Of a DNA stretch of 64,000 bases, positions 6,641 to 61,935 are shown one piece after another. The stretch is taken from contig OZ024747.1 in NCBI GenBank assembly GCA_964016885.1, positions 34,596,001 through 34,660,000 on the forward strand. The letters run 5' to 3'. Numbering within the stretch: position 1 is the stretch's first letter; the number at the start of each line of letters is the position of its first letter. The notes under the pieces were generated by a model, which saw only the letters and a program-made list of their open reading frames with translations, did no database searches and was not told where the DNA came from. A program made the position numbers and the translations under genes. Source of the DNA: Eledone cirrhosa. Taxonomy: Eukaryota.

Positions 6641-6643
6641 TAA

Positions 6644-6985: not shown

Positions 6986-7062
6986 TTATATATATATATA
7001 TATATTGGTGCTATTAAATTCGATATGACAGGACCAATACTGGCCGAAACCTAACAAATTTT

Positions 7063-38176: not shown

Positions 38177-38213
<37 letters not shown>
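38119..38213. repeat. (TCT)n followed by (AAT)n microsatellite
   Basis: Directly visible; left boundary of the LINE array. Confidence 0.95.
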
Positions 38214-38215
<2 letters not shown>

Positions 38216-40198: not shown

Positions 40199-40200
<2 letters not shown>

Positions 40201-41298
40201 GGACACTAAAAAACATAGGCACTAAAAATAGACTGGAAATAAAGTACAAAACCAGGAGGAAAAAGCTAAATATTATCATAGAGGAACTGAAGCAACGCAT
40301 TGTAGCAAAGAGTGCAAAAATCAGGCGATACGAGAACAGAGTCAGTCAGTATAAACAGAACCGCATGTTCGACAACAACCAGAAGATGCTGTTTGGACAG
40401 CTTGAGGGGAAAGAAAGAGGCAACGATTTGATCCCTGAGGCGGAACAAACTAAAACATTCTGGAGAGGAATATGGGAGCAGGATGTTAGACATAATGACC
40501 AGGCAGGGTGGATTGAGACAGTACAGAGGGAGATCGGTGAGCAGGCACACCAACAAACTGATTTGAGTATCACAGTTGAAACTCTTAAGAGGCAGGCCAA
40601 AAAACTAACCAACTGGAAATCACCAGGCCCAGATGGTGTGCAGGGGTATTGGATTAAAAATTGAACATCCCTCCACCCGAAACTGACAACCATGTTCAAT
40701 GACTGCTTGATGTCAGGTGAGGTACCATAGTGGTTGACAAAAGGTACCACAGTTCTGATAATGAAAGACCGAATCAAGGGTAATGATGTTACCAACTATA
40801 GACCTATCACATGTCTGTTCGGAATGTGGAAACTGTTGACGAGCATTGTGTCTGAGGAAATCTACCATCACCTCCACACAAAGAACTTGTTGCCGGACGA
40901 ACAGAAAGGATGCCGAAAGTAGTCACGTGGTACAAAGGACCAGTTACTTATTGATAAGATGGTAATGGGGAATTGCAGGAGGAGACACACTGATCTTGCC
41001 ATGGGATGGATAGACTACAGAAAGGCATTTGACATGGTGCCTCATTCTTGGATCACCAAAAGCCTGGAGATCTTTAAGGTTGCAGACAACATCAGATGGG
41101 CAGGTGTATGAGGTCCTGGGAAACAGAGTTGCCATCAACTGGAGAACCCTTGTGAAGCGTGAAGATCAAGAGAGGTATCTTCCAGGGAGATAGCCTGTCC
41201 CCTCTGTTGTTTGTCCTTGCCCTGATGCCCCTGACCATTATGCTGCGAAAAGTGAGAGCAGGATACAAGTTGGGAAAGGGAGAGCTTACCATCAATCA
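40199..41298 (+). mobile_element. R4/Dong-like non-LTR retrotransposon fragment (N-terminal half of RT)
   Basis: [49 protein letters not shown] and GIFQGDSLSPLLF, with stops; it breaks just before the catalytic YxDD motif. Confidence 0.85.
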
Positions 41299-43751
41299 CC
41301 AGTCAGGCGAGGCTTAGGACAAGGTACGACGGTTAGGCGGTAGCAGATGACAGACGCGATGTACGCGTTAGCCACCTCCGCTCGACCTTTCAGGGATAGC
41401 TTCCTCTCCGCCCATTTATGGGTGAGAGAAGCCACCCTGCTCGTCACCTCGTCCCAGTTTTTGTCCGTCTGGAGGTCCGGACCGAACCAGACCCCTAGCA
41501 ATTTAACCGGTCCGTCCGTCCAGCGCCCGACGACGCTGTTGGACGGCATGGACCTGCCTCTCCAGGTGCCGAGCTGCAGGCCCACTGACTTTTCCTGGTT
41601 GATCATTGCTCCTGTCACCGCTTCGTATTCTCTTAGTGTAGTGCCGATCGCCTCGATGTGTTTGGCGTTCGACACCACTACGGTGACATCGTCCGCATAT
41701 GCTGATACGGATCTTCCGCATCCTAGTTCGCGCGGGACTCCCCTCCACGTCTCCAGTTTGTGCAGTAATGGCTCGAGAGTCAATACGTACAAGAGGGACG
41801 AGAGGGGACATCCTTGGCGGACCGAGCGCATGATGTTGAACGGTTCCGACAGGTGACCGTTCACTCTCACTACAGAGCAGATGTCGCTGTGCATGGCAGC
41901 GATCCAGCCTCTGAAGACGGGCCCAAAGCCAGCCGCCCTCAGGACTGCCGCTAGGTAACGATGGTCGACCCTATCGAAAGCTTTCGACTGATCTAAATTG
42001 ATCAAGGACCCACCCGTGCCAGGTTCCCTAGCTACCCTCTCTACGATGTATCGCATGAGGTGGAGGTTGTCGTGGATGGATCTGTCGGGAATGGCGCATG
42101 TCTGCGCCTCTCCCACCAGACCATCAACGACAAGCGCCAACCTCTTTGCTAGCACCTTGGCCAAAATCTTACACTCTGTGTTTAGCAGAGTTATGGGCCG
42201 GAAATTGTCTATGTTATCCCCCTTGTTCGGATCCTTTCTCAGCAGTTCCACCGCTCCTCGGCTCACAGAACTGGGAATTCTCCCGTTCTGTTGCCAGTTG
42301 CAGTAGACGTCCGCCAAGAGGCCTCCGAACAAGTCTGGCATCTGTACGTAAAGTTCATAGGGCAGACCATCCAAACCAGGCGATTTACCCCTTGTGCAGC
42401 CAGTCATTGCCTCCCGTACTTCAGCGGCTGTTATCGGCTTTTCGCAGCACTTCGCCTCAGTGGCCGAGAGCCGCGGCAGTCCGTCGAGGTAGACACTAAA
42501 GTCCATCCCTCTACCCGGCCCCCCGCTGCCCCCGAACAGCTGAGCGAAGTGTCGCTGAAAAGCTTCACACATTTGCCCGGGATCGAGTAGCATGCGCCCG
42601 TCGTGGTCCACCAAAGACCGGATCGTGGCTTTGTTGCCACGACGCGCCTCCGCCACTCGGGCCCATTGAACGGCTTTCGTCCCCTCGTGTCTGAGAGCAC
42701 GCACCCTAGCTCTGACAACGCAGCCTTCGTGCTTTGCATTGAAGAATTGGTCAAGGGCCAATTTCGCCGCAAGCACGTCGGTCGCAATGCCTTTGCTAAG
42801 CGCCTCGTCTAATTTTCTAACTAGTTCTCCCTCTGCTCTATTTTTCTCTATTGCTAAAGCCTTACTAAACCTAATCGATTCTATTCTAATCGCTCTTTTC
42901 AGAGCAAACCACCACTTGTTGTTGACGATGGCCCCCGTCAACGCCCGCTTAACTAGTTCGCTAATCCGGTCTCTGTAGGCCTTGCGCGCTGGTAAGGACG
43001 CGTTTAGCTTCCAGTAGCCGGGTCCTCGTCTATGAAGCCTATCTAAGTCAAGCACACAGGTCACGAATTTGTGGTCCGTGTAGCTGACTATCTTGAATTG
43101 TGGACAGCCTATGCTAGACCTATCTATTTCCCTACAAAATACTCTATCTAGATATGATCTGGATGACCCTATGCGGTTTGTCCAAGTCCACATTGGCACA
43201 TTCGGGAAATCCAATCGGTACCTGTCAGACAGTTCAAAACGCCTGAGCAGGTTGGTGAGGCTCTTGCACCCTCCACCCCTATCCGCTAATCCCACACAGT
43301 CCCAGCGTGCATCTAAGATCCCGTTCCAGTCGCCCACTAACACTAAAGAGCGGGACGTTCCAAGAAAGGTCTCCAGACGCCGGAAGAAATCAGGCCGCCC
43401 TGCTCCTGTCGGGGCATAGACGGCCACTAGCCTGAAAGCTTGCCCGTCTCCGCTGGTCACGTCCAGCACCACCAGCTTACCCTCTGGGTCCAGGAAGATG
43501 GCCCGTATGGCGAGATCCAAACCTCTCCGAAAAAGCACAGCAACTCCTCCACCCGATCCAGGACGGCTGGGAGATGCGTACACATCGTAGCCGCCGAAGA
43601 TCGGTGCGAAGGCCCGTGCTTCGGAGATTCTGGTCTCGCTGATGGCCACTACATCTATGTTTAGTGACCTGAGGTCGTTGAGCAGGTGACCCTGATTCCA
43701 TGACGACCCCAAGCCACGCGCATTTATGCTGCCTATTCTGAGTGAGGTCAT
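41292..43751 (-). CDS. ORF2 APE endonuclease + reverse transcriptase, C-terminally truncated
   Basis: SINARGL, ISET, GDWN, SYLDR and TDH (APE); KSPGLDG, FRPITLLN, DQSKAFDRV, VRQGCPLS and AYADD (RT). Confidence 0.92.
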   Translation of the reverse strand: MTSLRIGSINARGLGSSWNQGHLLNDLRSLNIDVVAISETRISEARAFAPIFGGYDVYASPSRPGSGGGVAVLFRRGLDLAIRAIFLDPEGKLVVLDVTSGDGQAFRLVAVYAPTGAGRPDFFRRLETFLGTSRSLVLVGDWNGILDARWDCVGLADRGGGCKSLTNLLRRFELSDRYRLDFPNVPMWTWTNRIGSSRSYLDRVFCREIDRSSIGCPQFKIVSYTDHKFVTCVLDLDRLHRRGPGYWKLNASLPARKAYRDRISELVKRALTGAIVNNKWWFALKRAIRIESIRFSKALAIEKNRAEGELVRKLDEALSKGIATDVLAAKLALDQFFNAKHEGCVVRARVRALRHEGTKAVQWARVAEARRGNKATIRSLVDHDGRMLLDPGQMCEAFQRHFAQLFGGSGGPGRGMDFSVYLDGLPRLSATEAKCCEKPITAAEVREAMTGCTRGKSPGLDGLPYELYVQMPDLFGGLLADVYCNWQQNGRIPSSVSRGAVELLRKDPNKGDNIDNFRPITLLNTECKILAKVLAKRLALVVDGLVGEAQTCAIPDRSIHDNLHLMRYIVERVAREPGTGGSLINLDQSKAFDRVDHRYLAAVLRAAGFGPVFRGWIAAMHSDICSVVRVNGHLSEPFNIMRSVRQGCPLSSLLYVLTLEPLLHKLETWRGVPRELGCGRSVSAYADDVTVVVSNAKHIEAIGTTLREYEAVTGAMINQEKSVGLQLGTWRGRSMPSNSVVGRWTDGPVKLLGVWFGPDLQTDKNWDEVTSRVASLTHKWAERKLSLKGRAEVANAYIASVICYRLTVVPCPKPRLTGD

Positions 43752-46097
43752 GTTTAAAATAGAGTGGAAAAGATGGGAAAGACCACTTACCGTACTTTTG
43801 GTAGAGGAGGGATGGTTTTTACATCCCTTTTCACTTGATCGTCTGGTGAAGGGACCGTTGAATCGTCCCTTCGGCTGGTCGTCGGCTCTTCTAAGAGAAT
43901 GTCTGAGTATACTCTTCGATTGATGGTTCCTCCTAGGTCCCTGAAATCACCAACTGCGTTGGGGAATTTCGTTTTAATGTTTGTGTATTGTTTCTGTGCT
44001 ATTTTTAGCAGTCTTATGTTAGTTGGCGTTTTGATTGGTGCTGGTATTATGTAGTCCTGTTGTGAAATGTCTGTGTGTTGAATTATGTAAGTCATTAGTT
44101 TCTTGTTGTGTGTGTTTATTGCCGTGCATTTGTTTTTCTGGGGGTGGGGTGTGGTTCTGCTATTTTCTTGTCGTTGTTGCTGGGTGTGTGTGTTTTGTTG
44201 TTGTGTTTGCGATGTTGGTGCTTGTGGTGGTGGTGTTGAAGGTGTTGTTGGCGGTGGGGTTGTCGCCGGTGGTGATGGTGGTGCTGGTGTGGGTGGTGAT
44301 GGTGTTGGTGGTGTTGCTGCTGTGGGTCTCTTTGCAGTAGACTTTACCCTTTTCTCATTTCTTTCCTCCCTTTTCAAAGGCGACGATGCGCTGCTTCTGC
44401 GTTTGTGCCTTCTTGCGACCTTTTGCCATCCCTCTCCCACCTCACACTCCATGTCTGATTCTGTAAGGTCGGGGAGGGGTACCAGCTCCACTCTTTCACT
44501 TGTTGTTGTTGGTGATGTTTGCACTGGAGTCTCTGTTGCAGCTGCATTTGGTATTGCTGTTGTTGTTGTTAATATTTCCACTGCTGCTGCTGTCTTTGAT
44601 TTCCGTGGAGTGGGTATGGGTGCCACGGACCTATCGTTCCTGGTTGCCGCTTGTCCTGTTGCTGGTAGCCGTGGAGCCGGATTCGGAAGGAGGGGGGTTT
44701 TCTCCTTTCTCAGGGTCTTCTCGTTGCAGAAGGCCCTGAGGTGAGTCTTCGATCCACAGCGAAAGCATTTCGGGCGTTTTCCCTCAACACTTATGGGCAG
44801 TTGAGTGCCGTTATCGAAGTCTATCACATCCGGGATAGCTTCGATGCACTCCTGGTTGGTTTGGATTAGCATCTCAATGGAGGAGCCGACCCAATCTTCT
44901 CTTACTTTTTTCTGTACTTGCAGTACAGTTGTTTTGTCCTCGATTCCGACGAGGACAGACGCGGCCAGCCAAGAAGGGGTCATTCCGGGGGGGGACGTGG
45001 GTCAGTTTGACCCTCACAATGTTCTGCCCGCAGTAGGAGGGCACCAACACCATTTCCTCGCTCCTTAGGGTCACTACTGATTGGGCCTTTGCCTCCTGGG
45101 GTGTGGCAAAAAGTACGTCTACGGTGGCGTATTTTTTGCCTCGGGTGATGTGCGTTTTCCTCTGCCACACAGACCCCAAGGCTTTTTGTATTTGGGCCTC
45201 TGTGGCTCTTTCCACCCTACGGGATTTTGTACTTACTGTACGGTACGTGACCGTACAGTGCTCTTGGGTTTCGAAAAAATTTTTCGCTGCCTTGCAGATT
45301 GCTCGGTGTCCGTTCTTTGTCACCATCTTCTTCGCTTCCTCTAATTCCTCATTTGTTATGAGGATTGTTTCCAAGTTTTTCGCAATACCTGCAAATGAGA
45401 TTGGTTTTTCTCTGCTGTTGTTGTTGTCGTCAGAGCTGCTGGTACTTTTGTTGTTGCTGCAGGTACTACGACTACTGCCTCCGCCGCTGTTGCTGTGGTT
45501 GTTGTTGGTGTTGCTGCTGCTAATGCTGTTGTTGTTTATGCTGCTGGTGATGCTGTTGCGGCTGCTACTGTTGTTTTCATTGTCACTGTTGCTGTTGTTA
45601 TTACGGCTGCTACTGCTATTATTCCTGACGTCAGACGAATGAACTGGGTTTTCGTATTTCCCGCACACCTGTTTCGTCGCTGTCGTCGTCGTCGTGGAGA
45701 AACCTTGCACGCTTTGCACGAGACTTTTCTTTTCTTTCGTCGCTTGCGAAAGAGAAGGGAGGGAGAGAGACACATTTAAAGAAGGGAGGGAGAGAGACAA
45801 TCTTCTCTCTGCTGTAGTGATGATTGAGGAAGAAGAAGACGGAATGAGTGGGAGTGACGTATGAAATTTCTTTTTCGTAGCCATGTTTTTTTGTTTAAAA
45901 TGAAATTTTGGGTACAAAACCCCAATAACCGGTTATTTAACCCCGAAGGGCCAAATAACGGACAGAAAGACCCCTCTCACGAGGAGGAGGGTGTCTTTAT
46001 CAACAATTTGGTTCAAGTTTTAAACAATTTACAATTGTTTTAACGGTTAAAAATTACTATACCTTACAGAGCCGAGCCTCCGTCAACCATGGCATTC
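41299..46097 (-). mobile_element. Tx1/L1-like LINE, A-type 5' end, 3'-truncated
   Basis: 5' GAATGC next to (TTA)n; ORF1 45884-43787 with one frameshift at ~44990; ORF2 open from 43751 to the break. Confidence 0.95.
43787..45884 (-). pseudogene. A-type ORF1 (gag-like, CCHC knuckle), frameshifted
   Basis: Starts MATKKKF; contains CFRCGSKTHLRAFC (CX2CX4HX4C); an extra C in a homopolymer at ~44990 shifts the frame relative to the 55860 copy. Confidence 0.85.
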
Positions 46098-46126
<29 letters not shown>

Positions 46127-46128
<2 letters not shown>

Positions 46129-47488
46129 TTTTCTTTATTAACCACAAGGGTTTACATTAAGTAGACATTAAGGACAGTACAGGACAATACAGGACGGTAC
46201 AAATGGGCATTTCTGCGTGTAAAAAAAACAGAGGATGAAATAAAATAACAAAGAAAAATTCCCAATAGGGGGGAGACTTCCGAGAGACATTTGTGGAGAA
46301 AGCCCATTAAAAGACCACAGTGGCCCTGACCACCAGGGCAAGTGCCCTCTACCAGTTTTCCACCTTTAATTTACAGACACATACTCAGAGAAGGCCCATT
46401 CAGTCGGGCCATACTTGCTTCTCTCACCCATCTTTCAACAAAATGCTGGGAAGAGAGCACTTCCCTCTCTACCCTGATTTTCCTTTTCAGATGAAATTTG
46501 AAAAAGTTAATCAGGGCATCACCGAAGAGGTAAGTGCTCGTCTTCAGCCCTTTCAAACGTGTCCACCATACTATCTCTTTAGCCATGGCCACCAGACAGA
46601 TAAAAACTGCCTGCCCTTCCCGGCTAAAGGAAGAGGGCGGCGCAATCCTCACGATGGACTCAGCTGATAACTGGATCCGTCCTACGCGTGACAGCAGGTG
46701 TTCGACCTAAACCCACAAGTCAGCAATTTTCGGACACTGGACGAGTGCGTGCAGGACGGTTTCGTCGCCCTGTGCGCATCTCGGACATGCCCGGCTGACG
46801 GCACCTCCATGCCTGTAAAGTTTATCCCGAACTGGCAAAGCACCCCGGTAGCACTGCCAGGCCAGAGATTTCTGGAAGTTGTCCATAGGCCCCGGCCCAA
46901 AAGTCCTTCCAAGAGATTGGCTAGTTGATTTTCGTCGACGCCTAGAGTTTCTCCAAGTACGTCGTCCCTCTTCCCCTCCACTAATCCCCTATAGAACGCC
47001 AAGGTGGAGTTTCCACCGATCACATTGCCCGATTGGTCGAGGGCTGTGAGCGCCTGAAGACATTCCAGTCTCCAAGCGCTCACTCTCGGTCTTCGCTGAC
47101 CCAGGACTGCAGCTCCGTCAAGGAGACGAGCTGGGGAAAAACGTGTCTAGCAAACGCCGACCACACCTGACCACCGTCGAGGAAGAGGTGGAGATGTCGT
47201 AGCCTGAGCGCGTGTCTGCGCATCATCAGCCAGGGCATGCCCAGCCCTCCACGTAGCGGGTGTTGACAGCAGATGGACCGCCTGACCATCGGAGCGCGTC
47301 CCTTCCACAAGAAGCGAAAGAGCAAACGCTCCAGCGCAGTCAGGCGGGGCTTAGGACAAGGTATGACGGTCAGGCGATAGTAGATGATGGACGCGATGTA
47401 CGCGTTAGCCACCTCCGCTCGACCTTTCAGGGATAGCTTCCTTTCGGCCCATTTCTGGGTGAGAGAAGCCACCCTGCTCGTCACCTCG
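46127..47488 (-). mobile_element. Tx1/L1-like LINE 3' fragment, head-to-tail with 41299-46097
   Basis: Runs from EVTSRVASLTQKWAER through the 3'UTR; (AAT)n at 46098-46126 links the two copies. Confidence 0.93.
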
Positions 47489-48672
47489 GAATTGAATGCA
47501 AGGAATAGGATCGATGCCATAAACACGCTTGCCATACCAGTAGTAACCTACAGTTACAATGTCATCAACTGGTCAAGCACAGAGATCCGTAGGCTCGATA
47601 CAAAAATTCGAAAATTCTTAACCATGCACAGAATGCATCATCCTAAGGCAGATATAGATAGAATATATCTCACTAGGAAAGAAGGAGGACGTGGGTTAGT
47701 CCAGTTAGACATTGCGTTGAAAACTGCAACAATTGGATTATCTACATATCTAAGGAAATCACATGATGGATGATCAAACTCGTTTTGAAACACGAAAGCA
47801 TCAACAGATCATATTCCATTACAAAAGATGCACAAAGATACAGTAATGGACTACAAACTTCAGAAGTACCATTTACTGCTGAAATGGAAAACACAGAAAA
47901 AGCAAAGCAGGTAAAAGTAACTGCAAAGAAAGACCTGCTACAGAAACTGGCTAAGAAATGGCAAGAAAAGCCTCTGTATGGAAAATACCTAGAACGAGCT
48001 AACAATCCTGATGTTGACAAAACTTTAACCCATCAGTGGTTGGCATCCTCTGGAGTGAAATCGGATACTGAAGGACTGATTATATCAGCACAAGATCAGT
48101 GTCTGCCAACAAACAATTACCAAGCCAACATAATAAATAATGGATGCAACCCATTATGCCGTGTGTGCAAAAAACAACCAGAGACCATTGACCATATAAT
48201 TTCAATGTGCAGTCCTATAGCTCCAACCGAATACCAAAACAGGCATGACAGAGCTGCACAATACATACATTGGATAATAGACAAGAATGTATGTATAAAA
48301 ACATTTAAAAAATTGAGCAAGTATAAGGACCTGGAGATAGAAATTGGAAAAATGTGGAAATTGAGAACTAAAACAATACCTGTGGTTGTGGGCGCTCTGG
48401 GAATGATACCTAAGGGGGGTCTAATGATTACTTTTCGCAAATCCCAGGAAACCCGCGTATAGGAGAAATACAAAATATAGTACTAATGGGAACTGCCCAT
48501 ATATTGAGGAAGATTCTGTCAATATAAGTACATCACAAGTCTAAACACTAAAGATGAATGTGTGAGTATGTATGTTCTTTCTTGAACATGGCGGACCTTG
48601 TTGTCTCTTGAGATCACTCGTTGTGACTTGGTGATAACTCGTATGAACATAAAGCAAGATAAATACAACTGT
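47489..48672 (+). mobile_element. R4/Dong-like retrotransposon 3' fragment (CCHC finger, deleted restriction-like endonuclease)
   Basis: AINTLAIPV, RKEGGRGL, AQDQCL, CRVCKKQPETIDHIISMC, RHD, KYKDL and PVVVGALG; the PD..D segment is missing; (AAT)n tail. Confidence 0.87.
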
Positions 48673-48703
48673 AATAATAATAATAATAATAACAATAATA
48701 ATG

Positions 48704-48887: not shown

Positions 48888-48940
48888 TAATAATAACAAT
48901 AATAATATTAAGAAGAATTATAATTATTATTATTATTATT

Positions 48941-49297: not shown

Positions 49298-49334
<37 letters not shown>

Positions 49335-49336
49335 TA

Positions 49337-49410
49337 TTTTATTACATCCTCTGTTTTTTACACGCAGAAATGCCCATTATGTAAACCCTTTTGGTTAATA
49401 AAGAAATCAT
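49337..49410 (+). mobile_element. Mini fragment of the Tx1-like 3'UTR
   Basis: TTACATCCTCTGTTTTTTACACGCAGAAATGCCCATT joined to ATGTAAACCCTTTTGGTTAATAAAGAAA, followed by (TTA)n. Confidence 0.8.
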
Positions 49411-49430
49411 TATTATTATTATTATTATGA

Positions 49431-49614
49431 GGGTGGTGGATTGGCAGTATCGGTAGAGGGTTTGACGCCATGCTTTCCAGCATAGTTACGTCCCTTTACG
49501 ATCTGAGTTCAAATCCCGCCGAGGTTGACTTTGCCTTTCAACCTTACGGGGTCGATAAAATAAAGTACCAGTAATGCACTGGATAATTGCTGGCCTTGTG
49601 CCTAAAGTAGAAAC
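49431..49614 (+). mobile_element. Young SINE copy in (TTA)n
   Basis: tRNA-like head (TGGCAGTATCGG A box, GAGTTCAAAT B box), GCCTTTCA..GGGGTCGATAAA core and (TTA)n tail. Confidence 0.92.
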
Positions 49615-49615
49615 A

Positions 49616-49666
<51 letters not shown>

Positions 49667-49675
49667 ATTATTATT

Positions 49676-52600
49676 GGCGACCTACGTAGTAAATCGTATC
49701 ATCGTGAGCTCCGCAAAGGTTTGTTATATCCGTTTGTTAAAAATTTTCATTTATGGAAAATGTTATTGTTAACTGTTTATAAGCGCACATACATTGTTTT
49801 CCGAAAAGGACACCCAAAAAGATTGGGGCCTTGTGCCCAAAATTTAAACTTTTATTATTATCAAAAAAATTTGTTTGAAAAAAATGGCTGATTCACCTCT
49901 GCACGAAGCAGCTGAAAGCCTTCCTCACAAATTAACACCTCACACCGACACCACCATTGTAAATGTTACTACGTTTGCCAACACAAACAAAATATAAGCA
50001 CTAGCAATATTTTAAATTTGTCTCAGGCAGACATTCATTTCCCGCCATTACCAATGACTGCAGGTGTTAAAGCCTCCACCACCACCACCACCGCGACAAC
50101 AGAAACAAAAGAAGAAAAAAATAAATTAACTCGTGATGTCGAAATGAAATCAAGCAAAATGGACTCTTCCCCACCAAAGACGACTGACGTCACCAACACC
50201 ACAACTGAAACAAAAATCAATATTAACACAAATAACGATAGCAACAACAACAACAATGACATTATAAAACCCCCCTCAGTTTCGCCAGGGTAGCAAAGCA
50301 GTTCGAAGCATTTACGGTAACTCAGGAGGATTTAGAAAATGCCAAACAAATGGTAAAGAAAGATGGGTACAGGGTCAGCCTCACCCCCCCACCTAATAAA
50401 ATGGAGAATCGGCGCCTATGCACAGTGTCGTATCGAATAATAAATGTAAAATCGCGCCGAGTGGAACGGGCATCCGAGTCCCAAATCCAAAAAGCTTTGG
50501 GACATGTGTGGGCAAGAAAAACCCACATCAGACGTGGGCAAAAGTATGGAACCGTGGACGTGTTCTTTGAAACACCAGAGGAGGCTAGAGAACACTCCAT
50601 GGCCCCATTAAGAAGTGACGACTTCACACTCGTCCCAAGCTATTGTGGCCAGAGACTCGTATAGATCAGGGTGACCCAAGTTCCACCGGCCATCGAAATT
50701 CCGTGGCTAATAGCGGCCGTCCTCGCCGGCATCGAAGCCAACACGAAAATAATAGCAATAGCAAAAGAAAAGCAGGAAAACTGGTCCGGATCTGGGATGG
50801 AGCTCCTGATCCAAGCGGACCAAAAAAGCATTGAGGAGATCCCAGAGGTAATAGACCTCACTGATGGCAGCCACCTCACGGTAATTGTCGAGGGCAGAAG
50901 ACCTAAGTGTGTCGTTTGTGGTGAAGGAACCCACCTAAGGTCTTTCTGGCCTCAGGCTAAAAGGTTGAGGGCACCTCTCCTACCCACCCCAGTGACACAA
51001 CCATCAACACCACCAGTAGCAGAGATGGCAGCAACAACTGTAGCAACAACAACAGAAGCAACTATAACAGCAACAACCCCAGCAACAGTAGCAAAACCAA
51101 CAGCACCACCACCACCAGCAAAACTAACACCACCACCACCCAATGCTTCAGAACTAGCACCAAGCGCCTACACCACACCACAACCCAAACTAACGGCTGT
51201 GGAGGATTTTCCACTCCCCGGCCTACCACAACTGGAGACAGATTGTGACGACGAGGAGTGGGAAACGATATCCAGAAAAAAAAAAGAAACCAAAAAGAAA
51301 AAATTCTCTTCCTTCCCCCTCCTAAAACAAAATACAGAGGGAAACAAATAAATTAAGAAACAAAAAAGTTAGGACAGATATGCCACCATCCACACCAGCA
51401 TCACCAACCCCATCAACCCAAACACCAACACCATTCCATCATTAACCCCAACACCACCATCACCTACACCACAAAAGTCACCAAAATGCGAAACAGAAAC
51501 AAACCCACAACAAACGCAAACAAAACAAAACAACCAAAACGATACAGACTACACAGCATTAAATTTGAACAACAAGCAATTATTACACTACATCCAACAC
51601 AACACCAGCATCACAGAAAAATACTACACAACAACCCCAAAATTCACACCACCTCCACACATACAAATCACTCGCATCACACAGAAAACGTACATGACAC
51701 TAAAACAAAAATTTCCAAAAGACATCGGAGACTTCCGACGAGCACTCTCCAGGAGGATTTATGAGGACATCCTTCCTGAGGAGGCCACAAGCAGTGAAAA
51801 GGATGGAAAAACCGTCCTTCCCCTACGAGAAGTAAGGTAAGTGGTCTTTCCCATCTTTTCCACTCCTTTTCAACATGACCTCACTCAGAATAGGCAGCAT
51901 AAATGCGCGTGGCTTGGGGTCGTCATGGAAGCAGGGCCACCTGCTCAACGACCCCAGGTCACTAAACATAGATGTAGTGGCCATCAGCGAGACCAGAATC
52001 TCCGAAGCACAGGCTTTCGCACCGATCTTCGGCGGCTACGATGTGTACGCATCTCCCAGCCGTCCGGGATCGGGGGGAGGAGTTGCTGTGCTTTTTCGGA
52101 GAGGTTTGGATCTTGCCATACGGGCCATCTTCCTGGACCCAGAAGGTAAGTTGGTGGTGTTGGACGTGACCAGTGGAGACGGGCAAGCTTTCAGGTTAGT
52201 GGCCGTCTATGCCCCGACAGGAGCAGGGCGGCCTGATTTCTTCTGGCGTCTGGAGACCTTTCTTGGAACGTCCCGCTCTTTAGTGTTAGTGGGCGACTGG
52301 AATGGGATCTTAGATGCACGCTGGGATTGTGTGGGATTAGTGGATAGGGAAGGAGGGTGCAAGAGTCTCACCAACCTGCTCAGACGTTTTGAACTGTATG
52401 ACAGGTACCGAATGGATTTCCCGAATGTACCAATGTGGACTTGGACAAATCGCATAGGGTCATCCAGATCATATCTAGATAGAGTATTTTGTAGGGAAAT
52501 AGATAGGTCTAGCATAGGCTGTCCACAATTCAAGATAGTCAGCTACACGGACCACAAATTCGTGATCTGTGTGCTTGACTTAGATAGGCTTCATAGACGA

Positions 52601-55600
52601 GGACCCGGCTACTGGAAGCTAAACGCGTCCTTACCAGCGCGCAACGCCTACAGAGACCGGATTAGCGAACTAGTTAAGCGGGCGTTGACGGGGGCCATCG
52701 TCAACAACAAGTGGTGGTTTGCTCTGAAAAGAGCAATTAGAATAGAGTCCATTAGGTTTAGTAAGACTTTAGCAATAGAGAAAAATAGAGCAGAGGGAGA
52801 ATTTGTTAGAAAATTAGATGAGGCGCTTAGCAAAGGCATCGCGACCGACGTACTTGCGTCGAAATTGGCCCTTGACCAATTCTTCAATGCAAAGCACGAA
52901 GGCTGCGTTGTCAGAGCTAGGGTGCGTGCTCTCAGACACGAGGGGACGAAGCCGTTCAATGGGCCCGAGTGGCGGAGGCGCGTCGTGGCAACAAACCCAC
53001 GATCCGGTCTTTGGTGGACCACGACGGGCGCATGCTACTCGATCCCGGGCAAATGTGTGAAGCTTTTCAGCGACACTTCGCTCATATGTTCGGGGGCAGT
53101 GGCGGGCCGGATCGAGGGATGGACTTTAGTGTCTACCTCGACGGACTGCCGCGGCTTTCGGCCACCGAGGCGGAGTGTTGCGAAAAGCCGATAACAACCG
53201 CTGAAGTACGGGATGCAATGACTAGTTGCACAAGGGGTAAATCGCCTGGTTCGGATGGTCTGCCCTTGAACTTTACGTACAAATGCCAAACTTGTTCGGA
53301 GGCCTTTTGGCGGACGTCTACTGCAACTGGCAACAGAACGGGAGAATTCCCAGCTCTGTGAGCCGAGGAGCGGTGACGCTGCTGAGAAAGGATCCGAACA
53401 AGGGGGATAACATAGATAATTTTAGGCCCATAACTCTGCTAAACACAGAGTTCAAGATTTTGGCCAAGGTGCTAGCAAAGAGGTTGGCGCTTGGCGTTGG
53501 TGGTCTGGTGGGAGAGGCACAGACATGCGCCATTCCCGACAGATCCATCCACGACAACCTCCACCTCATGCGATACATTGTAGAGAGGGTAGCTAGGGAA
53601 CCTGGCACGGGTGGGTCTTTGATCAATTCATATCAGTCGAAAGCCTTCGATAGGGTCGACCATCGTTACCTAGCGGAAGTCCTGAGGGCGGCTGGCTTTG
53701 GGCCCATCTTCAGAGGCTGGATCGCTGCCATGCACAGCGACATCTGCTCTGTAGTGAGAGTGAACGGTCACCTTTCGGAACCGTTCAACATCATGCGCTC
53801 GGGCCGCCAAGGATGTCCCCTCTCGTCCCTATTGTATGTATTGACTCTCTAGCCATTACTGCACAAACTGGAGACGTTTAGGGGGGTCCCGCGCGAACTA
53901 GGATGCGGAAGATCCGTGTCAGCATATGCCGACGATGTCACCGTAGTGGTGTCGAACGCCAAACACATCGAGGCGATCGGCACTACACTAAGAGAATACG
54001 AAGCGGTGACAGGAGCAATGATCAACCAGGAAAAGTCAGTGGGCCTGCAGCTCGGCACTACACTAAGAGAATACGAAGCGGTGACAGGAGCAATGATCAA
54101 CCAGGAAAAGTCAGTGGGCCTGCAGCTCGGCACCTGGAGAGGCAGGTCCATGCCGTCCAACAGCGTCGTCGGGCGCTGGACGGACGGACGGGTTAAATTG
54201 CTAGGGGTCTGGTTCGGTCCAGACCTCCAGACGGACAAAAACTGGGACGAGGTGACGAGCAGGGTGGCTTCTCTCACCCAGAAATGGGCCGAGAGGAAGC
54301 TATCCCTGAAAGGTCGAGCGGAGGTGGCGAATGCGTACATCGCATCCGTCATCTACTACCGCCTGACCGTCGTACCTTGTCCGAAGCCCCGCCTGACTGC
54401 GCTGGAGCGTTTGCTCTTTCGCTTCTTGTGGAAGGGACGCGCTCCGATGGTCAGGCGGTCCATCTGCTGTCAACACCCGCTACGTGGAGGGCTGGGCATG
54501 CCGTGGCTGATGATGCGCAGACACACGCTCAGGCTACGACATCTCCACCTCTTCCTCGACGGTGATCAGGTGTGGTCGCCGTTTGCTAGACACATTTTTC
54601 CCCAGCTCGTCTCCTTGACGGAGCTGCAGTCCTGGGTCAAGCGAAGTCCGAGAAGGAGCGCTTGGAGACTGGAATGTCTTCAGGCGCTCACAGCCCTCGA
54701 CCAATCGGGCAATGTGATCGGTGGAAACTCCACCTTGGCGTTCTATAGGGGATTAGTGGAGGGGAAGTGCGACGACGTACTTGGAGAAACTCTAGGCGTC
54801 GACGAAAATCAACTAGCCAATCTCTTCGGAAGGACTTTCGGGCCGGAGCCTATGGACAACTTCCAGAAATACCTGGCCTGGCAGTGCTACCGAGGAGCTT
54901 TGCCAGTTCGGGATAAACTCTACAGGCATGGAGGTGCCGTCAGCCGGGTATGTCCGAGATGCGCGCAGGGCGACGAAACCGTCCTGCACGCACTCGTCCA
55001 GTGTCCGAGCATTGCTGACTTGTGGGTTTATGTCGAACACCTGCTGTCACGTGTAGGACGGATCCAGCTATCAGCTGAGTCCATCGTGAGAACTGCCCCG
55101 CCCCCATCCTTTAGCCGGGAAGGGCAGGCAGTTTTTATATGTCTGGTGGCCATGGCGAAAGAGATAGTATGGTGGACACGTTTGAAAGGGCTGAAGACGA
55201 GCACTTACCTCTTCGGTGATGCCCTGATTAACTTTTTCAAATTTCATTTAAAAGGAAAATCAGGGTAGAGAGGGAAGTGCTCTCTTCCCAGCATTTTGTT
55301 GAAAGATGGGTGAGAGAAGCAAGTATGGCCCGAATGAATAGGCCTTCTCTGAGTATGTGTCTGTAAATTAAAGGCGGAAAACTGGGAGAGGGCACTTGCC
55401 CTGGTGGTCAGGGCCACTGTGGTCTTTTAATGGGCTTTCTCCACAAATGTCCCTCGGAAGTCTCCCCCCTATTGGGGAATTTTTCTTTGTTATTTTATTT
55501 CAACCTCCGTTTTTTTACACGCAGAAATGCCCATTTGTACCGTCCTGTATTGTCCTGTACTGTCCTTAATGTCTACTTTATGTAAACCCTTGTGGTTAAT

Positions 55601-55608
55601 AAAGAAAA

Positions 55609-55610
<2 letters not shown>
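49676..55610 (+). mobile_element. Full-length Tx1/L1-like LINE, B-type 5' end, inactivated
   Basis: ORF1 49884-51840 (stops and frameshifts), ORF2 51875-55366 (frameshifts, stop at 53850, 75-bp duplication), 3'UTR with AATAAA and a (TTA)n tail. Confidence 0.95.
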
Positions 55611-55642
<32 letters not shown>

Positions 55643-58600
55643 GAATGCTATGGTTGACGGAGGCTCGGCTCTGTAAGGTATTGTAAATTTTGAACGCTAT
55701 AACAATTGTAAATTGTTTAAAACTTTAACCAACTTGTAGACAAAAACACCCTCCTCATCGTGAGAGTGGTCTTTCTGCCCGTTATTTGGCTCTTTGGGTT
55801 TAAATAACTGCTTATTGGGGTTTTGTGCCCAATATTTATTTTAAACAAAAAAAAACAACATGGCTACGAAAAATAATTTTCATAGGTCACTCCCACTCAT
55901 TCCGTTTTCTTCTTCCTCAATCGTCACTACAGCAGAGAGAAGATTGTCTCTCTCCCTCCCTTCTTTAAATGTGTCACTCTCCCTCCCTTCTCTTTCGCAA
56001 GCGACGACAGAAAAGAAAAGTCTCGTGCAAAGCGTGCAAGATTTCTCCACGACGACGACGATAACGACGAAACAGGTGTGCGAGAAATACGAAAACCCAT
56101 TTCATTCGTCTGACGTCAGGAATAATAGCAGTAGCAGCCGTAATAACAACAGCAACAGTGACAATGAAAACAACAGTAGCAGCCGCAACAGCATCAGCAG
56201 CAGCATAAACAACAACAGCATTAGCAGCAGCAACAACAACAACAACCACAGCAACAGCGGCGGCGGCAGTAGTCGTAGTACCTGCTGCAACAACAAAAGT
56301 AACAGCAGCTCTGACGACAACAACAACAACAGCAGCAAAGAAAAACCAAATTCGTTTGCAGGTATCGCGAAGAACCTGGAAACAATCCTCATAACAAATG
56401 ACGAATTAGAGGAAGCGAAGAAGATGGTGACAAAAACTGGACACCGGGCAATCTGCAAGGCAGCGGAAAAGTTTTTCGAAACCCAACAGCACTGTACGGT
56501 CACGTATCGTACAGTAAGTACAAAATCCCGTAGGGTTGAAAGAGCCATAGAGGCTCAAATACAAAAAGCCTTGGGGTCTGTGTGGCAGCGAAAAACGCAT
56601 ATCACCCGAGGCAAGAAATATGCCACCGTAGGCATACTTTTTGCCACACCCCAGGAGGCAAAGGCTCAATCCGTAGTGACCCTAAGGAGCGAGGAAATGG
56701 TGTTGATGCCCTCCTACTGCGGGCAAAAAATCGTGTGGGTCACACTGACCCACGTCCCCCCCGGGATGGCCCCTTCTTGGCTGGCCACGTCTGTCCTCGT
56801 CGGAATCGAGGACAAAACAACTGTACTGCAAGTACAGAAAAAAGTAAGAGAAGATTGGGTCGGCACCTCCATTGAGATGTTAATCCAAACCAACAAGGAG
56901 TGCATCGAAGCTATCCCGGATGTGATAGACTTCGATAACGGCGCTCAACTGCCCATAAGTGTTGAGGGCAAACGCCCGAAATGCTTTCGCTGTGGATCGA
57001 AGACTCACCTCAGGGCCTTCTGCAACGTGAAGACCCTGAGAAAGGAGAAAACCCCCCTCCTTCCGAAACCGGCTCCACGGCTACCAGCAACAGGACAAGC
57101 GGCAACCAGGAACGATAGGTCCGTGGCACCAATACCCACGCCAGGGAAATCAAAAACAACAGCAGCAGTGGAAGTATTAACAACAACAACAGCAATACCA
57201 AATGCAGCTGCAACAGAGACTCCAGTGCAAACATCACCAACAACAATAAGTGAAAGAGTGGAGCTGGTACCCCTCCCCGACTTCACAGAATCAGACATTG
57301 AGTGTGAGGTGGGAGAGGGATGGCAAACTGTCGTAAGAAGGCACAAACGCAGAAGCAGCGCATAATCGCCTTTGAAAAGGGAGGAAAGAAATGAAAAAAG
57401 GGTAAAGTCTACTGCAAAGAGACTCACAGCAGCAACACCACCAACACCATCACCACCTACACTAGCACCACTATCACCACCGGCGACAACCCCACCGCCA
57501 ACAACACCTTCAACACCACCACCACAAGCACCAACATCGCAAACACAACAACAAAACACACACACACAGCAACAACGACAAGAAAATAGCAGAACCACAC
57601 CCCGCCCCCAGAAAAACAAATGCACGGCAATAAATACACACAACATGAAACTAATGACTTACATAATTGAACACACAGACATTTCACAACACGACTACAT
57701 AATACCAGCACCAATCAAAACGCCAACGAACATAAGACTGTTAAAAATAGCACAGAAACAATACACAAACATTAATAAGAAATTCCCCAACTCAGTTGGT
57801 GATTTCAGAGACCTAGGAGGAACTATCAACCGAAGAGTATATTCGGACATACTCATAGAAGAGCCGACGACCAGCCGAAGGGACGATTCAACGGTCCCTT
57901 CACCAGCCGATTAAGTCAAAAGGGTTGGAAAAACCATCCCTCCTCTACGAAAAGTACGGTAAGTGGTCTTTCCCATCGTTTCCACTCTATTTTAAACATG
58001 ACCTCACTCAGAATAGGCAGCATAAATGCGCGTGGCTTGGGGTCGTCATAGAAGCAGGGTCACCTGCTCAACGACCTCAGGTCACTAAACATAGCTGTAG
58101 TGGCCATCAGCGAGACCAGAATCTCCGAAGCACGGGCCTTCGCACCGATCTTCGGCGGCTACGATGTGTACGCATCTCCCAGCCGTCCTGGATCGGGGGG
58201 TGGAGTAGCTGTGCTTTTTCGGAGAGATTCGGATCTCGCCATACGGGCCATTTCCTGGACCCAGAGGGTAAGTTGGTGGTGCTGGACGTGACCAGCGGAG
58301 ACGGGCAAGCTTTCAGGCTAGGGACCGTCTATGCCCCGACAGGAGCAGGGCGGCCTGATTTCTTCCGGCATCTGGAGACCTCTCTTGGAACGTCCCGCTC
58401 TTTTGTGTTAGTGGGCGACTGGAACGGGATCTTAGATGCACGCTGGGATTGTGTGGGATTAGCGGATAGGGAAGGAGGGTGCAAGAGCCTCACCAACCTG
58501 CTCAGGCGTTTTGAACTGTCTGACAGATACCGATTGGATTTCCCGAATGTGCCATTGTGGACTTGGACAAATCGCATTGGGTCATCCAGATCATATCTAG

Positions 58601-61600
58601 ATAGAGTATTTTGTAGGGAAATAGATAGGTCTGGCATAGGCTGTCCACAATTCAAGATAGTCAGCTACACGGACCACAAATTCGTGATCTGTGTGCTTGA
58701 CTTAGATAGGCTTCATAGACGAGGACCCGGCTACTGGAAGCTAAACGCGTCCTTACCAGCGCGCAACGCCTACAGAGACGGGATTAGCGAACTAGTTAAG
58801 CGGGCGTTGACGGGGGCCATCGTCAACAACAAGTGGTGGTTTGCTCTGAAAAGAGCATTAGAATAGAATCGATTAGGTTTAGTAAGGCTTTAGCAATAGA
58901 GAAAAATAGAGCAGAGGGAGAACTAGTTAGAAAATTAGACGAGGCGCTTAGCAAAGGCATTGCAAAGAACGTGCTTGCGGCGAAATTGGCCCTGTGTTGT
59001 CAGAGCACGGGTGCGTGCTCTCAGACACGAGGGGACGAAAGCAGTTCAATGGGCCCGAGTGGCGGACGCGCGTCATGGCAACAAAGCCACGATCCGGTCT
59101 TTGGTGGACCACGACGGGCGCATGCTACTCGATCCCGGGAAAATGTGTGAAGCTTTTCAGCGACACTTCGCTCAGTTGATCGGGGGCAGCGGTGGGCCGG
59201 GTCGAGGGATGGACTTTAGTGTCTATCTCGACGGACTGCCGCGGCTCTCGGCCACTGAGGCGAAGTGTTGCGAAAAACCGATAACAGCCGCTGAAGTAAG
59301 GGAGGCAATGACTGGCTGCACAAGGGGTAAATCGCCTGGTTTGGATGGTCTGCCCTATGGACTTTACGTACAGATGCCAGACTTGTTCGGAGGCCTCTTG
59401 GCGGACGTCTACTGCAACTGGCAACAGAACGGGAGAATTCCCAGTTCTGTGAGCCGAGGAGCGGTGGCACTGCTGAGAAAGGATCCGAACAAGGGGGATA
59501 ACATAGATAATTTCCGGCCCATAACTCTGCTAAACTCAGAGTTCAAGATTTTGGCCAAGGTGCTAGCAAAGAGGTTGGCGCTTGGCGTTGGTGGTCTGGT
59601 GGGAGAGGCGCAGACATGCACCATTCCCGACAGATCCATCCACGGCGACCTCCACCTCATGCGATACATCGTAGAGAGGGTAGCTAGGGAACCTGGCACG
59701 GGTGGGTCCTTGATCGATTTAGATCAGTCGAAAGCTTTCGATAGGGTCGACCATCGTTACCTAGCGGCAGTCCTGAGGGCGGCTGGCTTTGGGCCCGTCT
59801 TCAGCGGCTGGATCGCTGCCATGCACAGCGACATCTGCTCTGTGGTGAGAGTGAACGGTTATCTGTCGGAACCGTTCAACATCATGCGCTCGGTCCGCCA
59901 AGGATGTCCCCTCTCGTCCCTCTTGCACGTATTGACTCTTGAGCGACTACTGCACAAACTGGAGACGTTGAGGGGCGTCCCGCGCGAACTAGGATGCGGA
60001 AGATCCGTGTCAGCATATGCGGACGATGTCACCGTAGTGGTGTCGAACGCCAAACACATTGAGGCGAACGGCACTACACTAAGAGAATACGAAGCGGTGA
60101 CAGGAGCGATGATCAACCAGGAAAAGGCAGTGGGCCTACAGCTCGGCACCTGGAGAGGCAGGTCCATGCCGTCCAACAGCGTCATCGGACGCTGGACGGA
60201 CGGACGGGTTAAATTGCTAGGAGTCTGGTTCGGTCCGGACCTCCAGACGGACAAAAACTGGGACGAGGTGACGAGCAGGGTGGCCTATCTCACCCAGAAA
60301 TGGGCCGAGAGGAAGCTATCCCTGAAAGGTCGAGCGGAGGTGGCTGACGCGTACATCGCGTCTGTCATCTGCTACCGCCTTACCGTTGTACCTTGTCCTA
60401 AGCCTCGCCTGACTGCGCTGGAGCGTTTGCTCTTTCGCTTTTTGTGGAAGGGACGCGCTCCGATGGTCAGGCGGTCCATCTGTTGTCAACACCCGCTACG
60501 TAGAGGGCTTGGCATGCCGTGGCTGATGATGCGCAGGAACGCGCTCAGGCTACAACATCTCCACCTCTTCCTCGACGGTGATCAGGTGTGGTCGCCGTTT
60601 GCTAGACACGTATTTCCCCAGCTCGTTTCATTGACGGAGCTGCAGTCCTGGGTCAAGCGAAGACCGAGATGGAGCGCCTGGAGACTGGAATGTCTTCAGG
60701 CGCTCACAGCCCTCGACCAATCGGGCAATGTGATCGGTGGAAACTCCACCTTGGCGTTCTATAGAGGATTAGTGGAGGGGAAGAGCGACGACGTACTTGG
60801 GGAAAATCTAGGCGTCGACGAAAATCAACTAGCCAATCTCTTCGGAAGAACTTTCGGGCCAGGGCCTATGGACAACTTCCAGAAATCTCTGGCCTGGCAG
60901 TGCTACCGAGGAGCCTTGCCAGTTCGGGATAAACTCTACAGGCATGGAGGTGCCGTCAGCCGGGCATGTCCGAGATGCGCGCAGGGCGACGAAACCGTCC
61001 TGCACTCACTCGTCCAGTGTCCGAAAATTGCTGACTTGTGGGTTTATGTCAAACATCTGCTCTCGCGTGTAGGACGGATCCGGCTATCCTCTGAGTCCAT
61101 CGTGAGGATTACCCCGCCCTCCTCCTATAGCCGGGAAGGGCAGGCACTTTTTATCTGTTTGGTGGCTATAGCGAAAGAGATAGTATGGTGGACACGTTTG
61201 AAAGGGCTGAAGACGAGCACTTACCTCTTCGGTGATGCTCTGATTAACTTTTTCAACTTTCATCTGAAAAGGAAAATCAGGGTAGAGAGGGAAGTCCTCT
61301 CATCCCAGCTTTTTGTTGAAAGATGGGTGAGAGAAGCAAGAATGGCCCGAGTGAATGGGCCTACTCTGAGTATATATCTGTAAATTAAAGGTGGAAAACT
61401 GGGAGAGGGCACTTGCCTTGGTGGTCAGGGTCACTGTGTCCTTTTACTGGGCTTTCTCCACAAATTTCCCTCGGAAGTCTCCCCCCTATTGGGGAATTTT
61501 TCTTTGTTATTTTATTACATCCTCTGTTTTTTTACACGCAAAAATGCCCATTTGTACCGTCCTGTATTGTCCTGTACTGTCCTTAATGTCTACTTTATGT

Positions 61601-61627
61601 AAACCCTTGTGGTTAATAAAGAAAACA
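55643..61627 (+). mobile_element. Full-length Tx1/L1-like LINE, A-type 5' end, inactivated
   Basis: ORF1 from 55860 (stops at 57365 and 57914); ORF2 57998-61383 with frameshifts at ~58250 and ~58858 and a short deletion at ~58993; C-terminal CPRC..ETVLH...C finger; (TTA)n tail. Confidence 0.95.
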
Positions 61628-61935
61628 TTATTATTAGTGTTATTATTATTATTATAATTATTACTTTATTATTCTGTTTGTTATATTTGTTATCACCGTT
61701 GTGTTTACGTTCTTAGCATTTGATTTAGATTAGCAGTTAAGAGATAATAGAGAATTGTGTAAACACCTTGAAAGTCAGCCAAAACCACGATATGGTGTAT
61801 CTCGTACTTTGAAGCTAGGTTATTTCACGGAAACTACTTACGATCCAAATTAACATCAAATTTTTCTATTACACCTAAAGCAAATGTTCAAGATTTAAAC
61901 ATACCCCACCCCTCCACAAACACACACACACACAT

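What the first reader, a model, noticed from the sequence alone, without database searches (positions are those of the whole stretch)
49676..58000. Two different 5'UTR/ORF1 modules on one near-identical ORF2
Seen: B-type copies (49676 and 40166; start GGCGACCT, ORF1 MA(D/N)SPLH) and A-type copies (55643 and 46097; start GAATGC, ORF1 MATK) have dissimilar N-termini. Their core ORF1 is only moderately similar (HCTVTYRTVSTKSRRVERA versus LCTVSYRIINVKSRRVERA). The sequences converge in the last ~45 nt of ORF1, after which ORF2 and the 3'UTR are almost identical. Inferred: recombinational swap of the 5' module, recalling 5' replacement in mammalian L1.
Basis: partly seen in the sequence, partly recalled or inferred. 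Interest (0 to 1): 0.72.

Follow-up and report, generated by a model that had tools for sequence, protein, structure and literature searches.

The report
Retrotransposon with swapped front modules
Copies of one jumping-gene family, probably from an octopus, share an almost identical enzyme half but carry two long-diverged front halves, a clear invertebrate case of the module swapping already known from mouse and rat LINE-1.

Summary
These are L1-group (Tx1-like) LINEs. The two 5' modules, B and A, mismatch at 538 of 1441 aligned bases before a sharp change point at 51789 (interval 51777-51822, about 49 nt before the ORF1 stop) and at 211 of 3711 after it. Synonymous sites are saturated in the ORF1 core (pS 0.785; 49.5% amino-acid identity), whereas ORF2 dS is only 0.10-0.14 with dN/dS 0.2-0.3. 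Faster ORF1 evolution cannot explain this; a 5'UTR+ORF1 swap does. The modules are distant homologues, not unrelated DNA, so the closest precedent is inter-family recombination in rodent L1, not capture of a foreign promoter. Extras: 4 of 4 intact 5' ends follow an (ATT)n tract; both A heads sit directly behind a B-like tail, in two junctions that are not copies of each other; the shared last 45 nt of ORF1 can pair with the spacer across the stop codon. Limits: the B junction is seen in one copy, no other genomic copies were reachable, and direction and mechanism are inferred. A known kind of event with interesting local anatomy.

The parts
49616..49675 (+). (ATT)~20 tract directly upstream of copy B (tail of a short repeat at about 49411-49646)
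49676..49883 (+). B-type 5'UTR (208 nt, 32% GC)
   Evidence: 94.7% identical to the head of copy D
49884..51840 (+). B-type ORF1, decayed (N-terminal frameshifts, 3 in-frame stops): low-complexity N-terminus, two RRM-like domains, zinc knuckle, Thr/Pro linker, C-terminal domain
   Evidence: 49.5% to A in the core
51777..51822 (+). Breakpoint interval between the divergent 5' module and the shared module (ML point 51789)
   Evidence: alignment
51793..51864 (+). Predicted hairpin straddling the ORF1 stop: 5' arm is the shared last ~45 nt of ORF1, 3' arm is the spacer
   Evidence: -24.2 kcal/mol, 2 of 500 shuffles; window chosen after seeing the fold
51841..51874 (+). ORF1-ORF2 spacer (34 nt in B, 35 nt in A)
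51875..55366 (+). ORF2 of copy B: APE endonuclease, reverse transcriptase, Cys-rich C-terminus; frameshifts, a stop and a 75-nt tandem duplication (53977-54133)
55367..55642 (+). 3'UTR and (ATT)11 tail of B, abutting the A head
55643..55859 (+). A-type 5'UTR (217 nt)
   Evidence: 89.6% identical to the A2 5'UTR
55860..57962 (+). A-type ORF1, 700 codons with premature stops at codons 502 and 685; same domain order as B
57998..61383 (+). ORF2 of copy A (stop at codon 18, frameshifts, 33-nt deletion)
61384..61673 (+). 3'UTR and degenerate ATT tail of A
46128..47488 (-). P3: 5'-truncated B-like ORF2 3' end plus 3'UTR, upstream of the second A head
   Evidence: 96.5-97% to B and D, 94% to A
46098..46127 (-). 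(ATT)10 joining P3 to the A2 head
41300..46097 (-). A2: second A-type copy (5'UTR 46097-45885, ORF1 45884-43787 with one frameshift, ORF2 43751-41300 open for 819 codons, then truncated)
38178..40166 (-). D: second B-type head joined by an internal deletion (junction 39135-39137, about 4-nt microhomology) to the ORF2 3' end, 3'UTR and (ATT)12 tail
40200..48702 (+). Dong/R4-like LINE (label from its RT and C-terminal motifs, recalled) with a TAA tail; interrupted at 41299/47489 by the P3+A2 segment, with about 107 codons of its RT missing and no target-site duplication

Best explanation
Two long-separated sister lineages of one Tx1-like LINE coexisted in the same genome. One ORF2+3'UTR was joined to the other lineage's 5'UTR+ORF1 by a crossover in the short conserved patch at the end of ORF1. 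Shown: the breakpoint, the depth contrast, and synonymous-rich ORF2 differences, meaning ORF2 variants went on evolving under purifying selection after the exchange. Inferred, most likely route (about 0.45): the family inserts into (ATT)n tracts, including its own tails, so a new copy lands directly behind a resident relative. The nascent cDNA, or a later deletion between the direct repeats, then joins the resident's head to the newcomer's ORF2 where homology is best. A template switch between two RNAs gives the same product (about 0.3). The chimera works because the promoter travels with ORF1, while the 3' recognition signal and the junction hairpin travel with ORF2. Later short conversions keep ORF2 patchy. 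Weak hints that A heads are the recruited older part: A/A2 heads differ more (5.5%; core dS 0.16) than their ORF2s (3.4%; dS 0.07), B/D heads differ no more than their tails (3.7% each), and B's hairpin arm fits the spacer best.
For: Change point with 37% vs 5.7% mismatch. pS 0.785 in the ORF1 core and 0.745 in the C-terminal domain vs ORF2 dS 0.104 (A2/B) and 0.144 (A/B, 3' part), dN/dS 0.20-0.30. B-odd ORF2 sites are 44 synonymous to 26 non-synonymous, p=8e-12 against neutral. Protein tree distance is about 0.8-0.9 for ORF1 A-B against about 0.05-0.1 for ORF2, with A and B still sisters among 13 database ORF1s (98/96). Each head occurs twice with the same 3' sequence family. 4 of 4 intact 5' ends follow an ATT tract, and such tracts cover 300 of 64000 bp. 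Both A heads follow a B-like tail. P3 is not a copy of B's tail: 5 of 10 informative sites join P3 with D, 2 of 10 join it with B. Precedent and the three proposed mechanisms: PMC3600994, passages.
Against: Only 1 intact B junction and 2 A junctions, all in one 25-kb nest. The displaced ORF2 (the missing parent) was not found: no relatives in the prokaryotic genome collection, and database proteins have no ORF1-ORF2 linkage. ORF1 does evolve faster even within A (core pS 23/157 vs ORF2 38/590, p=0.0017; whole ORF1 p=0.13), so part of the contrast is rate. Adjacent A and B share 4 derived amino-acid changes, two at otherwise conserved positions, which points to some local conversion. Tract tests are marginal (uncorrected p 0.03, 0.04, 0.11). 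The route and the direction are not shown.
Confidence: 0.82

Rival explanations
1. Local gene conversion after insertion homogenised ORF2 among neighbouring copies of two distinct families and stopped where ORF1 became too divergent; no active chimeric lineage ever existed.
For: All copies lie within 25 kb. A and B share 4 derived residues against A2 and the outgroups. Identical runs of 146-184 nt (p 0.03-0.11). Conflicting informative sites in the 3' part (5, 3 and 2).
Against: No unconverted patch remains: the lowest gap-free 100-column window of ORF2 is 87%. ORF2 differences are synonymous-enriched (dN/dS 0.2-0.3), as expected of active lineages and not of dead copies. Adjacent A and B are the least similar ORF2 pair (131 differences vs 96 and 83 in 2416).
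Confidence: 0.1
2. No exchange: ORF1 and the 5'UTR simply evolve far faster than ORF2.
For: Within A, 5'UTR 10% and ORF1 5.5% vs ORF2 3.4%; longer A stem in the ORF1 tree (0.49 vs 0.31).
Against: Selection on protein does not saturate synonymous sites. The within-A synonymous excess is at most about 2.4-fold, while A vs B would need over 20-fold. The ORF1 core is under purifying selection within A (dN/dS 0.23). The transition is confined to about 45 nt.
Confidence: 0.04
3. One head type is a non-autonomous or one-off composite, for example a 5'-truncated ORF2 that landed at the end of another element's ORF1 (the route suggested in PMC4120745, section 13) and never amplified.
For: The B junction is seen once; copy D lacks it.
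Against: D independently links a B head to the same 3' end. The join keeps the ORF1 frame and its last 12 codons in both types. All observed integration sites are ATT tracts, not ORF1 ends.
Confidence: 0.03
4. Assembly artefact: chimeric joining of repeat reads.
For: Dense nest of near-identical repeats.
Against: Copies differ by 3-6% with private indels. The join falls in frame at a biologically meaningful point and is the same in two A copies on opposite strands.
Confidence: 0.01

Closest known systems
Mouse L1MdTf/Gf and rat L1 inter-family recombinants (PMC3600994, passages)
   Same: An older 5'UTR+ORF1 joined to a younger ORF2 of a coexisting lineage, breakpoints near the ORF2 5' end; a young 3' end recruiting an older 5' part.
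   Different: The rodent parents are families only a few million years apart, with breakpoints inside ORF2. Here the ORF1s are about 50% identical with saturated synonymous sites, and the join lies in the last ~49 nt of ORF1.
Mammalian L1 5'UTR replacement (PMC5381506, passages)
   Same: A new 5' end on a conserved ORF2; could serve escape from host repression (not tested).
   Different: Mammalian UTRs are non-homologous and long. Here they are short (about 210 nt), share a motif, and all of ORF1 goes with them. [quoted passage not shown]
Reticulate ORF1 evolution in CR1/L2 (PMC4120745, passages and section 13)
   Same: Whole ORF1s move between ORF2 lineages; RRM+CCHC architecture.
   Different: Those are ancient transfers inferred from deep trees in the Jockey superfamily; this is a recent exchange with a mappable breakpoint in the L1 group.
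Microsatellite-targeting Tx1 families Kibi (TC) and Koshi (TTC), and Dong (TAA) (PMC4494074 and PMC3812793, passages)
   Same: APE-type LINE found in a simple-repeat target.
   Different: The target here is ATT/TAA, listed in those passages only for Dong. Tx1 membership was not tested against named references.
Endonuclease-independent L1 insertions (PMC1920257, abstract and section 11)
   Same: The 41300-47488 segment lacks a tail and a target-site duplication and comes with a target deletion.
   Different: It spans a tail-to-head junction of two elements; a normal insertion followed by deletion is not excluded.

Membership tests
L1 group of APE-type non-LTR retrotransposons | ORF2 with N-terminal APE endonuclease, RT and C-terminal Cys-rich region | tested here: met
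   Pfam Exo_endo_phos 4.5e-15, RVT_1 1e-29, zf-RVT 8e-08
L1 group of APE-type non-LTR retrotransposons | ORF2 closer to L1 ORF2p than to other RTs | tested here: met
   Best solved-structure matches are LINE-1 ORF2p over residues 5-814, E 8e-46, against R2 at 2e-21; a small reference set
L1 group of APE-type non-LTR retrotransposons | Bicistronic layout, no LTRs, simple-repeat tail | tested here: met
Tx1 clade | RT phylogeny with named Tx1, Keno, Kibi and Koshi references | not testable with these tools
   Hits are almost all unnamed; no named Tx1 references in hand. The label Tx1-like is recalled from architecture.
Tx1 clade | ORF1 with RRM(s) plus a CCHC knuckle (recalled feature) | tested here: inconclusive
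   C-x2-C-x4-H-x4-C is visible in A. No Pfam hit on the window ORF1s. Model pLDDT 52; top fold matches mostly tandem RRMs, none at E<=0.001. Atlas look-alikes include ZCCHC3-type RBD+CCHC at 0.90. zf-CCHC above cut-off in 2 of 8 ORF1 homologues scanned.
Tx1 clade | Target preference (over 20% of flanks, criterion in PMC4494074) | tested here: inconclusive
   4 of 4 intact 5' ends follow ATT tracts, but this is one locus, and all 11 tracts of the window lie in this nest
Mammalian-type 5'UTR replacement | Incoming 5'UTR is non-homologous | tested here: not met
   Shared motif before the ATG, 0 of 1000 shuffles
Mammalian-type 5'UTR replacement | Most of ORF1 is retained with ORF2 | tested here: not met
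   Breakpoint about 49 nt before the ORF1 stop
Inter-family LINE recombinant (Tf/Gf type) | Discrete breakpoint | tested here: met
Inter-family LINE recombinant (Tf/Gf type) | Different history on either side | tested here: met
   Depth: pS 0.785 vs dS 0.10-0.14; tree lengths. Topology is unresolved.
Inter-family LINE recombinant (Tf/Gf type) | Both parental lineages identified | not testable with these tools
   No eukaryotic DNA collection; negative
Inter-family LINE recombinant (Tf/Gf type) | The recombinant amplified as a family | tested here: inconclusive
   Two heads of each type and purifying-selection signal, but one locus only

The most novel reading that the evidence does not exclude
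Targeting its own (ATT)n tails makes this family build mixed B-A head-to-tail arrays that are transcribed through and act as a standing exchange platform. One ORF2 pool is shared by several promoter+ORF1 modules. The plug-in point is an RNA cassette over the ORF1 stop: a hairpin that covers a candidate 52-53-nt intron whose removal would fuse ORF1 in frame to the endonuclease. That would be a modular LINE with a defined swap site and a splice-based solution to ORF2 expression.
Probability: 0.1. Interest if true: 0.75.

Novelty: new variant of a known kind. Interest (0 to 1): 0.42.

Why it matters
Exchange of 5' ends is a recurring theme of mammalian L1 evolution. It was not seen in short-5'UTR vertebrate L1s (PMC5381506, passages). 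A recent swap of a whole 5'UTR+ORF1 at about 50% protein identity, in what looks like an octopod, shows that one ORF2 has been propagated with two very different ORF1s. This gives a natural pair for asking what ORF1p-ORF2p and ORF1p-RNA compatibility requires. The tail-targeting geometry offers a concrete, genome-wide testable route for such swaps, on which rodent data are ambiguous. Practically, RT-based repeat libraries would merge these into one family and miss or mis-assemble one head. None of the searches listed a paper whose title or abstract describes this case. The O. vulgaris annotation lists 13 recently active L1-Tx1 families, and the words ORF1, chimer- and recombin- do not occur in its main text (PMC13282606, passages and section 7). 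Its supplements and repeat library were not seen and may hold both consensus sequences.

Tried and rejected
Circular permutation of one element for 41300-47488: rejected, because the two copies of the 152-bp overlap differ at 10 sites and split B-like vs A-like at 3 of 3 informative sites. Local inverted duplication of 54248-60415: disfavoured, because P3 is not B's sister and A2 differs from A in a synonymous-rich way in the ORF1 core. Mosaic tracts in ORF2: the first length test (p=0.001) was inflated by B's 75-nt duplication; the corrected values are 0.03, 0.04 and 0.11 before multiple-test correction, so suggestive only. The ORF2 protein tree joined A with B (94/89, below the tool's strong-support mark) but used approximate frame pieces, so I rely on the codon-wise count. 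Word-based search with ORF1 A found nothing among 687 candidates. The profile search found 485 proteins at E<=0.001, of which 150 were listed. After leaving out 2 knuckle-repeat proteins, the best identities were 40% to A and 49% to B, so there is no closer parent; none of the nine C-termini printed ends in the shared A/B tail. Trees used 13 of the 150 ORF1 hits (those covering most of the core) and 12 of the 42 ORF2 hits. Prokaryotic genome scan: 11 pattern matches, 0 relatives. Rfam: 2 chance-level matches. Junction hairpin: A folds it weakly (19 of 500), A2 prefers another fold, and the 3' arm is nearly invariant, so there is no covariation support. The source names of the unnamed relatives stayed unchecked, as did metagenome and viral contig collections; the host assignment rests on two named hits (Argonauta hians 58%, an Octopus sinensis fragment).
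Full report
Setting. The window is animal DNA rich in microsatellites (32% GC over the first 38 kb). From 38178 to 61673 it holds a nest of retroelements with ATT/TAA tails. All 11 perfect ATT-type tracts of five or more units lie there. The only named relatives of ORF2 are an Argonauta hians protein (58%) and an Octopus sinensis fragment, so an octopod host is likely but inferred.

The element. ORF2 carries an APE endonuclease, RT and a Cys-rich end, and matches LINE-1 ORF2p best among solved structures. ORF1 has a low-complexity N-terminus, a core predicted at low confidence as two RRM-like domains, a zinc knuckle, a Thr/Pro linker and a small C-terminal domain. The architecture is Tx1-like (recalled label; not tested against named references). 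The copies are B 49676-55609(+), A 55643-61626(+), A2 46097-41300(-, 3'-truncated), D 40166-38215(-, B head with an internal deletion) and P3 47488-46128(-, 3' end only).

The observation. Identity between B and A is 53-67% over the ORF1 core and 87-100% from the ORF2 start to the tail, apart from two indel windows. A two-rate model puts the change at 51789 (51777-51822), with 538 of 1441 mismatches before and 211 of 3711 after. The last 36 coding bases and the spacer are intermediate. Either the crossover lies about 45-50 nt before the stop and this patch has since drifted faster, or it lies nearer the ORF2 start and the patch is conserved; these cannot be separated here. The two modules are homologues: core 49.5%, C-terminal domain 38%, a shared 5'UTR motif, and sisters among 13 database ORF1s.

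Why it is an exchange. Synonymous sites in the ORF1 core are saturated (pS 0.785), while ORF2 dS is 0.104 for A2/B and 0.144 for A/B in the 3' part, with dN/dS 0.20-0.30. Within type A the ORF1 core does run faster than ORF2 (dS 0.163 vs 0.067, p=0.0017; whole ORF1 0.094, p=0.13), but that factor is far too small. ORF2 differences are enriched for synonymous changes on all three branches (44:26, 24:32 and 10:12, against about 1:3 expected). The source elements therefore diverged while active, and the near-identity is not just dead copies overwriting each other.

ORF2 has no clean tree. In the 152-bp stretch covered by four sequences, 3 of 3 informative sites group A with A2 against B with P3. 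In the last 920 bp A stands apart (about 94% vs 96-97%), and the ten informative sites split 5, 3 and 2. With protein outgroups, 4 derived residues unite A with B and 1 unites A with A2. Tract tests are marginal. I read this as one shared, lightly recombining ORF2 pool, with some conversion between neighbours.

Arrangement. 4 of 4 intact 5' ends follow an ATT tract, and both A heads follow a B-like tail with 10-11 ATT units. The second junction is not a duplicate of the first. It sits in a 6.2-kb segment, truncated at both ends and without target-site duplication, inside a Dong/R4-like LINE. That host lacks a median 107 codons at the site relative to 48 homologues. This resembles endonuclease-independent insertions (PMC1920257, abstract and section 11) and would imply a template spanning a B-to-A junction. 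An ordinary insertion followed by a deletion is not excluded.

Mechanism. Tail targeting places a new copy directly behind a homologous resident. Pairing of the new cDNA with the resident at the ORF1 end, or a later deletion between the repeats, would give resident head plus new ORF2. This corresponds to the first two of three models discussed for rodent L1; the third, RT strand switching between RNAs, fits most mouse cases (PMC3600994, passages) and remains open here. Direction is only hinted. A heads are more diverse than their ORF2s, B/D heads and tails are equally diverged (33/900 and 34/919), and B's arm pairs best with the spacer (-15.5 vs -12.2 and -9.5 kcal/mol). This suggests A heads were the older part recruited.

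Junction signals (leads). The shared last 45 nt of ORF1 can pair with the spacer across the stop codon (B: 2 of 500 shuffles, window chosen after seeing the fold; A: 19 of 500; A2 prefers another fold). A stronger hairpin follows the ORF2 start at 51909-51962; it ranks first of 163 windows of B and is retained in all three copies. This recalls the downstream structure that affects SART1 ORF2 initiation (PMC3894237, passages). The ORF1 stop also overlaps a consensus splice donor. An acceptor 52-53 nt downstream would fuse ORF1 in frame to ORF2, losing only its first four residues, in 3 of 3 copies. The interval is very short, every copy retains it, and there is no transcript evidence, so this is speculative. 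The search returned no paper holding all four of its terms on such a fusion.

Comparison and verdict. It works like inter-family recombination of rodent L1 and ORF1 shuffling in CR1/L2 (PMC3600994; PMC5872511, passages; PMC4120745). It fails the defining features of mammalian foreign-5'UTR capture. What is new is the depth of the swapped module, the non-vertebrate short-UTR setting, the position of the join and the tail-targeted tandem context. One locus, one B junction and no missing parent limit the claim. Interest 0.42; new variant of a known kind.

Noticed in passing
window 41300-47488 (-): A 6.2-kb B-like-tail/A-head segment, truncated at both ends with a 152-bp overlap between them, replaces about 107 codons (including the RT catalytic motif) of a Dong/R4-like LINE; no target-site duplication.
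   Followed up: yes
window 51837-51888 and the equivalent places in A and A2: A consensus splice donor overlaps the ORF1 stop; a 52-53-nt candidate intron would fuse ORF1 to ORF2 in frame in 3 of 3 copies. No transcript evidence.
   Followed up: partly
window 51909-51962: Strong hairpin about 35 nt after the ORF2 start (-38.5 kcal/mol, best z of 163 windows of copy B), retained in A and A2.
   Followed up: partly
window 39135-39137: Copy D joins ORF1 (equivalent of 50575) to the ORF2 3' part (equivalent of 54689) over about 4 nt of microhomology; it could be a non-autonomous derivative. It also has a 107-nt tandem duplication in ORF1.
   Followed up: partly
window 49334-49428: A fragment of about 95 nt made of two pieces of the same LINE's 3'UTR plus an ATT tail, inside another ATT tract.
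   Followed up: no
window 48672-48907 and 49411-49646: Two inverted, 96% identical short repeats with ATT tails; partial copies at 15225, 28553 and 31032-31444. SINE-like; no credible Rfam match in 38000-64000.
   Followed up: partly
window 20269-20985 (+): An older relic of a related ORF2 3' end, 57% amino-acid and about 70-73% nucleotide identity.
   Followed up: no
window 53977-54133: Perfect in-frame 75-nt tandem duplication in ORF2 of copy B.
   Followed up: partly
window 62938-63957: Two head-to-tail copies of a unit of about 510 bp, 90% identical.
   Followed up: no
window 10869-11709: 48-bp minisatellite with open frames on both strands; possibly a repetitive coding exon or a plain satellite.
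   Followed up: no
window 2283-2629 and 6643-6989: A pair of 347-bp inverted copies, 98.8% identical, 4 kb apart.
   Followed up: no
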